Shown: positions 51,385-58,479 of the stretch, one piece after another
Numbering within the stretch: the stretch's first letter is position 1
Layout: every line of letters begins with the position of its first letter
Source of the DNA: Octopus sinensis
Taxonomy: Eukaryota
Length of the DNA stretch: 64,000 nucleotides
NCBI RefSeq assembly: GCF_006345805.1
Contig: NC_043011.1
Span: 45,520,464 to 45,584,463, forward strand
Reading direction: 5' to 3'
Program-made: the position numbers and the translations under genes
The notes under the pieces: model-generated
The model's input: only the letters and a program-made list of their open reading frames with translations
What the model was told of the DNA's origin: nothing
Databases searched by the model: none

Positions 51385-51930
51385 CTACCCTAGGCACAAG
51401 GCCCGAAATTTTGGGGGAGGGGTCCAGTCGATAAGGTCGACCCCAGTACTTAATTTATCGATACCGAAAGGATGAAGGGCAAAGTCGACCTCGGCGGATT
51501 TGAACTCAGAACGTAAAGACAGACGAAATACCTATTTCTTTACTACCCACAGAGAGGACAAACAAGGACAGACAAACGGATTAAGTCGATTATATCGACC
51601 CCAGTGCGTAACTGGTACTTAATTAATCGACCCCGAAAAGATGAAAGGCAAAGTCGACCTCGGCGGAATTTGAACTCAGAACGTAGCGGCAGACGAAATA
51701 CCTATTTCTTTACTACCCACAAGGGGCTAAACACAGAGAGGACAAACAAGGACAGACAAACGGATTAAGTCGATTATATCGACCCCAGTGCGTAACTGGT
51801 ACTTATTTAATCGACCTCGAAAGGATGAAAGGCATAGTCGACCTCGGCGGAATTTGAACTCAGAACGTAACGGCAGACAAAATGCGGCTACGCATTTCGC
51901 CCGGCGTGCTAGCGTTTCTGGCAGCTCGAC
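51385..51930 (-). mobile_element. SINE family B tandem trimer
   Basis: Three core units with two identical junctions gacgaaatacc|tatttcttt. Confidence 0.9.
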
Positions 51931-54724: not shown

Positions 54725-55087
54725 AGGCGGCGAGCTGGCAGAAACGTTAACACACCGGGTAAAATGCTTAGCGGTATTTCGTCTACCGTTACGTTGTGAG
54801 TTCAAATTCTGCCGAGGTCGACTTTGCCTTTCATCCTTTCGGGGTCGATAAATTAAGTACCAGCTACGCACTGGGGTCGATGTAATCGACTTAATACCTA
54901 TGTCTGTCCTTGTTTGTCCCCTCTGTGTTTAGCCCCTTGTGGGTAATAAAGAAATAGGTACTTAATATATCGACTCCGAAAGGATAAAAGGCAAAGTCAA
55001 CCTCGGCGGAATTCGAACTCACAACGGCAGACGAATTACGGCTACACATTTCGCCCGGCGTGCTAACGGTTCTGCCAGCTCGCCGCC
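54725..55087. mobile_element. Two SINE B copies fused in inverted orientation
   Basis: Plus copy at 54725-54956 joined at gaaata|ggtacttaat to a minus-strand 5' half. Confidence 0.85.
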
Positions 55088-55576
55088 TGTGCTATAACGC
55101 TGCACAATGTACGTTCGATTATTTTTACCTCAGTAATAATTTTTTTGTTTATTTATCTTTCCCAGAAGGATAAAAATCACAGTTGACTTCGGTGACATTT
55201 GAAATCAGAACATAAATACCCATAAGGAAATCCTACAGGAATTTCTCAGACGTTTTGTCAATTCTGCCAAGACTTGAAAAACAAAATGTAACCCATAATA
55301 GAAAAGTGTGTTGGACGGGAGATAACTCCATTGTTAGTTATTTCCCTTTGTATGTAAATGTTTCATTTTAGCGAATTCGCGTGGGTGCTTCTATGAAATC
55401 TTTCAAAATGCGAGACATGATCGTCAAATATCTGTCAAAGCATACTTTGCTGTAAGAAATATGTAAGGGCACTTTGGTTAATGTAGTCCAAGGTACATTA
55501 TTCTTAAATAGACAACGTTATAGTCACAGCTGTGAAAATATTATGAATCTATCATCAATGAGGATAGATTTAACGA

Positions 55577-55626
55577 TAGTGGTTAAGAGCGCGATCTACT
55601 AACCCCAAGACTCCGAGTTCGATTCC
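55577..55626 (+). promoter_or_regulatory. tRNA-like Pol III A/B boxes
   Basis: tagtggttaagagc...gagttcgattcc at tRNA spacing. Confidence 0.65.
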
Positions 55627-55635
55627 GGGCAGTGA

Positions 55636-55673
<38 letters not shown>

Positions 55674-55720
55674 TCGAAAAATACCTTGGGAATGAGAGCC
55701 CAGGTTCGAAATTTCCCCAA

Positions 55721-55766
55721 GACACCTGATGAAGGCTGGAGGGTATATCAGCCGAAATGTTGTGTT
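55721..55766 (+). ncRNA. Minimal type-I hammerhead ribozyme
   Basis: GACAC-CTGATGA-a-GGCTG-gagggtatat-CAGCC-GAAA-t-GTT-GTGTT. Confidence 0.75.
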
Positions 55767-58479
55767 AACAACAAACAAGATGAGGACAAATATCAGCCAA
55801 ATGTAAATAATGTAAAAAAAAATAGTGAATCCATTTCTCACTTTTGAAATATTTATGGAAAATGTGTTTGGCTAAAACCAATAGATCGATATTAGGTTTT
55901 GCTATTGATAATAATTATTTCAGTGACCCTAGTGTCCTATGTGGTTGGATGGTGAAGTCTCAAAGCAAAAAGAGATGTAGCTAAATTCCTATTGTATCAG
56001 AGAACCCTTGAATTATATAACGACTTCTAAAAGTGACCCAGAGGTTATTTAAGGTCGGTGGGGTCACAGAAGAAAAACAGAACCTCTGCAATTTTTTTTG
56101 ACCTCACTGCCCACAATGATGAATATCTAATTCACCTGTAGCAGGTCCCAGAACGTAAACAAAACGTAAATACTGCTAGGCATTTTGCTGTCGCTTGTTA
56201 ACAAAGGCGTTGTTGTGTGGGGAAGGAGTCTACTTCACTACTCCATTGTTTTGATTTCAATCCCAGTGTGAGGTACCCCAAGCAATTTTTTTTTCTTCTA
56301 TACCCAAAATCTTATCAGTGAAATTCGCTAAAGAGAAACTGTATGAAATCCCTTTTAGAGCGCTTTGTTCCTGTTGCTGACAGATGAACTTAAATCAATC
56401 ACCCTGTTTAACACCCCTATTTGGTCCCTTGGGTGCCAATAGTGGAATCAGCTCTACTGTAAGCATTCAGGTTCGAAGATTGTGACTGATGACAAATGAC
56501 TGATAACTATCCTCCTTTGCCTAACTTTTGTAAAAAAAAACAAAACAAAATGTATAAAATAATTCCATTAAATGCAACCTCCCCCATCCATATGACACTT
56601 CCTTCCCCAACATGATAACCAATTTTCTCATCATTGTCATCATCATCATCATCGTTGTCTTTTTCTTCTTCCAATCAGGACTCTCGCCATTAGCCACAAA
56701 GAATAATCTCTAATTTGAGCCCACTTTAAGCTACTAAGAATGCGTGTGGCAACTTGAAGATCCACCCACCACACGCAATAGACTGGCGGTGACATGACGC
56801 AAAGCTATATAGTTATCCTCATTCGGTAAACGGTGGCTTTTAACGGGTGGAGAGCTTAACCATCCTTGGGTACAGAGGATTCGCAATCTAGACTAGGGTC
56901 TGAAAGTTTACCACACCATAGTGGGTTACACTATGGTTCCTCTGCTTTGTGGCAGAAGTAGGAAGAAAGAGTGAGAGAAAGCTGTGGTGAAAGAGTACAG
57001 TGGGGTTCACCACTACACCCCGCTGGAGCCTCGTGGAGCTCAGGTGTTTTTGCTCAATAAACACTCACAATGCCCGGGCCGGGAATCGAAACCGCATTCT
57101 TACGACCGCGAGTCTGCTGCCCTAACCACTGGGCCATTGCGCCTCCACTTGTCATTGCTGTTGTCATTGTCGTCGTCGTTGACATCATTACCACATCATC
57201 ATCAACATGTCCTTCCTGTGACCTACCCTCACTGGATATTCCTTTCCTGGAAGATCGGAAATAAAGGACACCACACCACCAGCCTTATATGACAGTGGCG
57301 CACGTTTACAACTATTGTGCAATGTTAAAACAAAGGGGCAAAGAGAAACATCCACAAAAACCATACGTAAATTCATATACAAAATATGAAAGGCTTCTTT
57401 CAGTTTCCAAATCCATTCACAAAGCTTAGGTCAGCTCAAGATGCCATGCAGTGGGACTGAACCCAAAACCAAGTTGTTGGGAGGCAAACTTTTTAACCAT
57501 ACGGCTATACCTGTATTTGTGTGTGTGTACATACACATATATTTATGTCTCACTCTATATATATTATATATATGAGTGAGAGAGAGAGAGAGAAAGAGGT
57601 GGGGGTGAGAAATATATGTATAATTACACAAAAACATGTGAACCTAGTGTATAAAACAAAATCTTTTCTACAGGAGGCACAAGGCCCGGAATTTTGGGGG
57701 ATAGGGGCCAGTCAATAAGATTGGCTCCAGTACGCAACTGGTACTTAATTTATCGAACTTGAAAGGATGAAAGATCTCAGTGGAATTTGAACTCAGAATG
57801 TAAAGACACTCTTTTTACTTGTTTCAGTCATTTGACTGTGGCCATGCTGGAACACCACCTTTAGTCAAACAAATCGACCTCAGGACTTATTCTTTGTAAG
57901 CCTAGTACTTATTATATCAGTCTGTTTTGCTGAACCGCTAAGTTACGGGACGTAAACTCACCAACATTGGTTGTCAAGCGATGTTGTGGGGGGCAAAAAC
58001 AGACACACACACATATATATATATATATACGATGGGCTTCTTTCAGTTTCCGTCTACCAAATCCACTCACACGGCTTTGGTCGGCCTGAGGCTAGAGTAG
58101 AAGACACTTGCCCAAGGTACCACGCAGTGGGACTGAACCCAGAACCATGTGGTTGGTAAGCAAGCTACTCACCACACAGCCACTAAGCATTTCGCCCAGT
58201 TCACCAATGTTTCTGCCAGCACGCTGTCTTCAAGTGTATGACACAGAATGTGACAAGATCAGACTTTGAATTACATGTACAATTCACTTTGCCAACTGAG
58301 TGCACTGGAGTAATGTGAAATAAAGTGTCTTGCTCAAGGACACAACGTGCCGCCAAGAATCGACCTCATGACTTCATGATTGTGAACTAAATACCTTAAC
58401 CACCAAGCCATGCACCTTCACAATATATATATATATATTATATATAACCAAGAAGAAAGCAACAAGAATGGATCAGTAG

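What the first reader, a model, noticed from the sequence alone, without database searches (positions are those of the whole stretch)
55577..55820. Pol III (tRNA-box) head upstream of a hammerhead: candidate ribozyme-bearing SINE or retrozyme
Seen: A box and B box (55577-55626), an (AAT)n spacer, a second B-box-like ggttcgaaat, then a canonical CTGATGA...GAAA hammerhead (55721-55766) and a short repeated tail (aatgtaaat aatgtaaa). Established: a tRNA-promoter plus hammerhead architecture is known from schistosome Sm-alpha repeats. Inference: this could be a Pol III-transcribed, self-cleaving non-autonomous element using PLE machinery, possibly through circular RNA. I do not know whether it is described in this lineage. 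The tRNA 5' acceptor strand is not recognisable in this copy, and helix III reads AATGTT rather than the palindrome AACGTT.
Basis: partly seen in the sequence, partly recalled or inferred. Interest (0 to 1): 0.75.

Follow-up and report, generated by a model that had tools for sequence, protein, structure and literature searches.

The report
Penelope end-repeat with tRNA-like head
This is a short, broken copy of the end-repeat of an abundant protein-coding Penelope-type jumping gene; the repeat joins a tRNA-like head to a predicted self-cutting RNA motif, and because most copies that reach the head begin right at it, the head likely serves as the element's start signal for RNA polymerase III, a promoter type normally seen in non-coding parasites.

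Summary
The parts are real and linked: 2,021 exact copies of the hammerhead core and 3,189 of the head; 28 of 30 head copies run into the same body. But the stretch is the terminal repeat (pLTR) of a Penelope/Poseidon-type element, not a separate SINE or retrozyme. The head follows the GIY-YIG stop codon in 27 of 30 ORF copies, the tail runs into the ORF start, and insertions show inverted partners, two 3' ends and ~12-bp target duplications. The unusual part: 52 of 80 arms reaching the head stop within -18..+8 of its tRNA-like +1, none at -19..-108, and a full-length copy starts there. So the RNA likely starts just before an A/B-box head, probably by Pol III (inferred; no RNA support). This copy lacks the A box's 5' half and has CpG-decayed helix III. 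Hammerheads in pLTRs are published; a tRNA head in a coding PLE I did not find in print (7 searches; one 1994 paper unreadable). This scan found the same element earlier, here and in other genomes.

The parts
55577..55639 (+). tRNA-like head of the pLTR, 5'-truncated in this copy (starts at tRNA-like +13, inside the A box)
   Evidence: family majority passes the A+B pattern, this copy does not; 3,189 genomic hits
55577..55582 (+). 3' half of the A box (TAGTGG)
   Evidence: against family majority
55615..55626 (+). B box, intact
   Evidence: pattern (box consensus recalled)
55640..55671 (+). (AAT)n spacer, length variable between copies
55672..55720 (+). pLTR body; holds the predicted start codon and the B-box-like GGTTCGAAAT (55703-55712), which lies in the coding frame
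55692..55694 (+). Predicted start ATG of the PLE ORF; the frame runs through hammerhead and tail into the ORF in tandem or full copies
   Evidence: real copy L226 has a 391-codon open frame that begins one codon before it; use as start is inferred
55721..55766 (+). Minimal type I hammerhead (5-bp helix I, 6-bp helix II, extra A after A9, helix III only as a dimer); predicted cut after 55761; helix III decayed here
   Evidence: features as in PMC4209133; activity untested
55767..55814 (+). Tail, equal to the first codons of the ORF; this copy ends at the inner of the family's two 3' end clusters
   Evidence: loose ends at both clusters in reads

Best explanation
The stretch is a 5'-truncated solo copy of the terminal repeat of a Penelope/Poseidon-type retrotransposon, and the tRNA-like head at the front of that repeat likely acts as the element's RNA polymerase III promoter. 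Shown: the repeat lies 30 nt behind the GIY-YIG stop codon and its tail is the start of the ORF; copies end at two fixed 3' points, often have an inverted partner and are flanked by ~12-bp duplications; 5' ends pile up at the head. Inferred: the template RNA begins about 5-9 nt before the tRNA-like +1; the PLE reverse transcriptase starts inside the RNA at the tail (as shown for the anole element PAc), so starting at the first pLTR-ORF junction copies only head-to-tail and leaves thousands of solo repeats like this one, while starting at a downstream junction copies the ORF. Inferred too: two cDNAs, or one folding back, join through the palindrome that straddles +1 and give head-to-head pairs. 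The hammerhead would cut only as a dimer or with protein help and is predicted dead in this copy.
For: 27 of 30 loci picked by ORF DNA alone have the head behind the stop (one of them is the query's own locus). Tail joins ORF start; RT domain PF00078 E 3.5e-10; relatives at 38-62% identity with RT and C-terminal nuclease region. 66 of 90 hammerhead-picked loci show an inverted part upstream (counted). 3' ends cluster at about +85..96 and +117..125 from core C3. Non-simple direct repeats of 9 bp or more at 18 of 49 measurable insertions, mode 12, against 1.7% of 600 mismatched pairs. 5' ends of 80 arms from 62 loci: 20 inside the head, 52 at -18..+8, 0 at -19..-108, 8 run on into the ORF; rate per base 9 times that inside the head and 35 times that upstream; 28 of the 52 are not palindrome-type joints. 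Full-length copy L411 starts at -2. Head passes the A+B pattern met by 23 of 27 real tRNAs of this genome and by 0 of 20,000 shuffles. No T4 run in 2,333 nt of the coding strand. Solo and ORF-linked copies share variants; median non-CpG divergence 4.7% (n 48) and 4.0% (n 36).
Against: No RNA evidence for a start at the head, for cleavage or for Pol III: reads were unstranded, 65-71% ran on into unlike sequence, and no pile of molecule ends was found. ORF 5' part is barely covered by RNA reads (depth 2-14 per direction against 1,000 or more at the hammerhead). The lack of T4 runs is not significant (2.0 expected, P(0)=0.096). The head no longer folds as a tRNA, has no Rfam hit and no clear parent (best Arg-TCT, z 7.6, close to Ala and Cys; 6 isotypes sampled). 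A palindrome sits exactly at the pile-up and explains 24 of the 52 joints. The two arms of a pair are not independent, so the p-values (about 1e-17 to 1e-19) overstate; L134 and L135 look like one duplicated locus. The sample is 90 of 2,021 copies, all from contig C1 and all with an exact core. Known PLE promoters are in the pLTR but overlap an intron (PMC8557442 passages).
Confidence: 0.62

Rival explanations
1. The head is a passenger (an old tRNA or SINE insertion in the 3' UTR). The element is transcribed by Pol II from a pLTR promoter that happens to start here, or the pile-up of 5' ends comes from cDNA fold-back and annealing at the palindrome.
For: Palindrome-type joints at 24 of 52 ends; head plus (AAT)n looks like an inserted simple retrocopy; tRNA fold is lost; Penelope and Chlamys use an intron-linked internal promoter (PMC8557442 passages); Kojima argues autonomous partners must use Pol II (PMC10886601 passages).
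Against: 28 of 52 ends are joined to other sequence yet stop in the same window; none stops in the 90 nt upstream; both boxes are intact in the majority while the stems have decayed; no intron-like joint on the element's strand among the listed joints (only the best-supported rows shown).
Confidence: 0.2
2. One reading: solo copies are themselves transcribed by Pol III and re-copied by PLE enzymes, forming a self-amplifying SINE born from the pLTR.
For: Short copies far outnumber ORF-linked ones (8 of 80 arms reach the ORF); solo copies with a whole head keep both boxes; a T4 stop is usually near (55842 here).
Against: No solo-specific variant at 9 sites tested and similar divergence (small sample). 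In PAc the template needs ORF sequence beyond the start site of reverse transcription (PMC11167929), which solo copies lack: only 1 of 90 continues into the ORF (L059). This copy lacks half the A box.
Confidence: 0.14
3. A retrozyme: tandem units are cut by dimeric hammerheads into monomers that circularise and re-insert.
For: Palindromic helix III in the majority, dimer duplex -3.5 kcal/mol; the one core position that varies freely (N7) is the polymorphic one, though that change is also Asp to Glu in the ORF.
Against: Only 4 of 90 loci have a second same-strand hammerhead; copy ends map to the head and the tail, not to the cut site; no back-joint at the cut site in reads (weak).
Confidence: 0.04

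Closest known systems
Penelope/Poseidon PLEs, especially PAc of the green anole (PMC11167929; parts 1-2 of 4 read)
   Same: One ORF with RT and C-terminal GIY-YIG; hammerhead overlapping the ORF start; two 3' ends about 30 nt apart, 120-160 nt into the ORF; tandem junctions.
   Different: [quoted passage not shown]
Minimal hammerheads of metazoan pLTRs (PMC4209133; parts 1-2 of 4 read)
   Same: Short helix I, long helix II, extra base after A9, palindromic 15.2-16.2; mostly single copies and opposite-strand pairs 100-700 bp apart, read as truncated PLEs.
   Different: No A/B-box head mentioned in the parts read.
TRIMp3: Cassandra, Helenus, Ajax (PMC10886601; passages)
   Same: Small-RNA-derived Pol III promoter inside a terminal repeat, boxes kept while the tRNA is non-functional.
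   Different: Those are non-coding LTR elements; here the repeat belongs to a coding PLE of about 2.6 kb.
Schistosome Sm-alpha SINE-like repeats (as reviewed in PMC6765202; passages)
   Same: Pol III promoter followed by a hammerhead.
   Different: Non-coding, tandem, canonical hammerhead; not the end of a coding element.
Non-LTR retrozymes (bioRxiv 10.64898/2026.07.22.740005; part 1 of 5 and passages)
   Same: Type I hammerhead, derived from PLE pLTRs.
   Different: Defined by tandem units each with a hammerhead; the text has no occurrence of 'tRNA' or 'promoter'.

Membership tests
EN+ Penelope-like element (Penelope/Poseidon type) | Single ORF with RT followed by C-terminal GIY-YIG nuclease with CCHH | tested here: met
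   RT PF00078; nuclease motifs read by eye (motif recalled; Pfam gave no GIY-YIG hit); all copies seen are broken
EN+ Penelope-like element (Penelope/Poseidon type) | pLTR: same repeat behind the stop and in front of the ORF | tested here: met
EN+ Penelope-like element (Penelope/Poseidon type) | 5' truncation with adjacent inverted copy; optional 30-40 bp tail | tested here: met
   66 of 90 loci; two 3' clusters
EN+ Penelope-like element (Penelope/Poseidon type) | Placement in the Poseidon clade by RT phylogeny | not tested
   no named reference sequences were held; assignment rests on domain order and recalled motifs
PLE minimal hammerhead | Core, helices I and II, extra base, palindromic helix III | tested here: met
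   majority form; helix III palindrome lost in the window copy
PLE minimal hammerhead | Self-cleavage | not testable with these tools
   no cleavage ends in fragmented cDNA reads
tRNA-derived SINE | Head with A and B boxes at tRNA spacing | tested here: met
   family majority; not met by the window copy
tRNA-derived SINE | Copies begin at the head | tested here: met
   52 of 80 arms
tRNA-derived SINE | Non-autonomous family distinct from its partner, head absent from the partner | tested here: not met
   head is part of the coding element; no solo-specific variants
tRNA-derived SINE | Transcription by Pol III | not testable with these tools
   only indirect: boxes, position of 5' ends, no T4 (P 0.096)
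Non-LTR retrozyme | Tandem units each with a hammerhead | tested here: not met
   4 of 90 loci; window copy is single
Non-LTR retrozyme | Circular RNA | tested here: inconclusive
   no such joint listed, libraries unsuitable

The most novel reading that the evidence does not exclude
A protein-coding retrotransposon that captured a tRNA-derived promoter and has its whole 2.6-kb RNA made by Pol III (no T4 stop on the coding strand; full-length copy starts at the head), with internal priming throwing off SINE-like copies of its own 5' end: a built-in route from a PLE to a Penelope-dependent SINE.
Probability: 0.3. Interest if true: 0.85.

Novelty: new variant of a known kind. Interest (0 to 1): 0.6.

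Why it matters
How Penelope-like elements are transcribed and why they leave so many solo and inverted end-repeats is still open. Here the head marks the RNA 5' end in the genomic record, so thousands of copies map both ends of the cDNA and make the internal-priming model testable. If Pol III drives a coding element, it departs from the rule that coding retrotransposons use Pol II and raises the question of how an uncapped RNA is translated. It also shows how such repeats get filed as SINEs.

Tried and rejected
Rfam and ARAGORN: no tRNA or hammerhead call in the window or 10 loci; relaxed ARAGORN gave mostly noise. An independent SINE sharing the head: not seen, 30 of 30 heads are followed by the AAT/AAC tract and 28 of 30 by the body. 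Solo-only subfamily: none at 9 sites. RNase P cleavage at +1 as the source of the 5' ends: disfavoured, many ends keep 2-8 native bases upstream and the T stem has 2 of 5 mismatches. T4 depletion as proof of Pol III: not significant. Sister PLE families in the genome: the 30 best loci of a distant-protein search were all this family. Distant PLEs in metagenomes (23-45% identity): 0 of 80 loci pass the A+B pattern, 37 have a loose hammerhead core, but the pattern finds only 8 of 30 loci of this family and many contigs end early, so this is weak. Run search: no RNA holder listed. Contigs of three other organisms cover every part, but no listed piece reaches 31 letters into the head, so ORF-to-head linkage there is not shown. 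Target duplication for the window copy: only a 6-mer (55576-55581, 55822-55827), within chance. One search used a wrong stretch and gave nothing; its 30 loci were left out of all counts. Sequence look-up of earlier findings was blank. PDB search gave only weak RT hits.

Full report
Observation. The hammerhead has helix I at 55721-55725 with 55762-55766, the core from 55726, one extra A, a 6-bp helix II and a predicted cut after 55761. It is the minimal type described for Penelope-like elements (PMC4209133, parts 1-2 of 4 read), and Rfam and ARAGORN call nothing here. The A box is half missing: the copy joins the family at tRNA-like +13.

A repeat family. A DNA search gave 1,860 candidates, with many hits across head and hammerhead together. 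Exact counts are 2,021 for the 37-nt core and 3,189 for a CpG-tolerant 33-nt head pattern, with reversed controls at 0. Of 30 head-picked copies, all are followed by the AAT/AAC tract, 28 by the body and 26 by a hammerhead hit. The parts do not occur independently.

It is a pLTR. Two of the first 30 hammerhead-picked copies had coding sequence directly before the head, and a third had it on its inverted arm. A search with that coding DNA alone gave 3,010 candidates; in 27 of the 30 fetched loci the head follows the stop codon (one is the query's own locus; of the misses one has a decayed head visible by eye, one lacks it, one ends early). Walking upstream gave the RT (PF00078, E 3.5e-10) and the N-terminus, where the tail runs straight into the ORF. 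An ATG 34 nt before the core opens a frame through hammerhead and tail into the ORF; copy L226 keeps 391 open codons from there. The 'second B box' is therefore coding sequence. Four database relatives at 38-62% identity share the layout. I did not build a tree, so 'Poseidon type' rests on domain order and recalled motifs. All copies seen are broken; median non-CpG divergence of the repeat is 4-5%.

Insertion anatomy. I examined 90 of the 2,021 core matches, all on contig C1. 66 have an inverted part upstream; 4 have a second same-strand hammerhead. 3' ends fall in two clusters about 30 nt apart, matching the optional tail and the two internal start sites of reverse transcription reported for PAc (PMC11167929, parts 1-2 of 4). 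Of 49 insertions with definable limits, 18 have a non-simple direct repeat of 9 bp or more around the whole composite, most often 12 bp, against 1.7% in controls; a head-to-head pair is thus one event. Helix III is palindromic in the majority and CpG-decayed in this copy; the predicted dimer duplex goes from -3.5 to +0.8 kcal/mol and helix I from about 0.7 to 0.3 pairing probability.

The 5' ends. 93 alignments reached the head; I dropped 13 (short fold-back arms and two hits to another SINE) and kept 80 arms from 62 loci. 20 end inside the head, 52 at -18..+8, none at -19..-108, and 8 run into the ORF. Values near -17 are alignment overrun into fold-back joints; clean joints keep at most about 8 native bases upstream. 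A palindrome straddles +1 and accounts for 24 joints, but 28 are joined to other sequence. One full-length copy, L411, starts at -2. The simplest reading is an RNA 5' end about 5-9 nt before +1, 12-16 nt before the A box, which is where a type 2 Pol III promoter starts (recalled). The majority head passes an A+B pattern met by 23 of 27 real tRNAs of this genome and 0 of 20,000 shuffles; its stems are decayed and its parent is unclear. The coding strand has no T4 run in 2,333 nt, which permits Pol III read-through but is not significant (P 0.096).

Mechanism. Shown: structure, linkage, end positions, target duplications. Inferred: transcription from the head; internal priming at the first pLTR-ORF junction, giving solo repeats that start at the RNA 5' end; joining of cDNA ends at the palindrome. 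Solo copies lack the ORF sequence beyond the tail that PAc needs on its template, and share variants with ORF-linked copies, so they are more likely dead ends than a self-amplifying SINE. The test is small and does not exclude some re-copying.

RNA. No listed holder is on record as RNA. Three raw RNA runs of a coded organism that holds the repeat gave thousands of reads in both directions, 65-71% running on into unlike sequence, with no pile of ends and no joint at the cut site; the ORF 5' part is barely covered. This looks like read-through of host transcripts and neither supports nor refutes Pol III. The repeat is held by runs of five coded organisms.

Known and new. Hammerheads in pLTRs, solo copies and opposite-strand pairs are published (PMC4209133). 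Pol III promoters in terminal repeats are known for non-coding TRIMp3 elements (PMC10886601, passages), and promoter plus hammerhead for Sm-alpha (PMC6765202, passages). Retrozymes as PLE derivatives: bioRxiv 10.64898/2026.07.22.740005 (part 1 of 5 and passages). PLE structure and promoters: PMC8557442 (passages). Passages of PMC13282606, PMC8967140 and PMC3531059 do not describe this repeat; their supplements and libraries were not seen and could list it. Seven searches listed no tRNA-headed coding PLE, judged from listings. Ohshima and Okada 1994 on octopus SINEs could not be read and may describe the short form as a SINE.

Earlier scan notes. After my reading was written down (notes), one search showed that the scan had found this element before, in this genome and others. 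Most notes agree; two file it as a SINE-like parasite, which my searches do not support. They are not independent evidence.

Verdict. A new variant of a known kind: an ordinary dead solo pLTR at this locus, of a family with an unusual tRNA-like head that likely marks its transcription start. Interest 0.6.

Noticed in passing
window 30857-31050 (-): U2 snRNA match, 117.7 bits, full length, with a degenerate 3' stem; possibly a variant or pseudogene.
   Followed up: no
L043, L049 (upstream of the body); L050, L060, L078, L084, L269: The AAT tract of the pLTR is often hit by other elements: a 3' end that recalls R4/Dong elements in L043 and L049 (name recalled), and another AAT-ending repeat in the others.
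   Followed up: partly
window 54730-55090; also 33500-33864 and 51446-51883: A different, abundant SINE-like repeat: an apparent head-to-head inverted pair at 54730-55090 and 184-bp tandem units elsewhere.
   Followed up: no
family alignment, hammerhead position N7 (window 55730): T/A polymorphism (26 A among 107 copies not picked by the core), far above neighbouring sites; it is the free core position and also an Asp-to-Glu change, so ribozyme and protein constraint cannot be separated.
   Followed up: partly
L400, L401, L402, L398; L194 and L200; L134 and L135: Near-identical loci with shared flanks on different contigs or positions: segmental duplicates or uncollapsed haplotypes.
   Followed up: partly
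L385 1493-3305: Longest stop-free stretch reported for the family, 551 codons; all other copies examined have stops or frameshifts.
   Followed up: no
L311, L331, L332, L342 and other metagenome loci: Distant PLE relatives share one longer hammerhead-like motif; 37 of 80 loci have a loose core on the coding strand.
   Followed up: no
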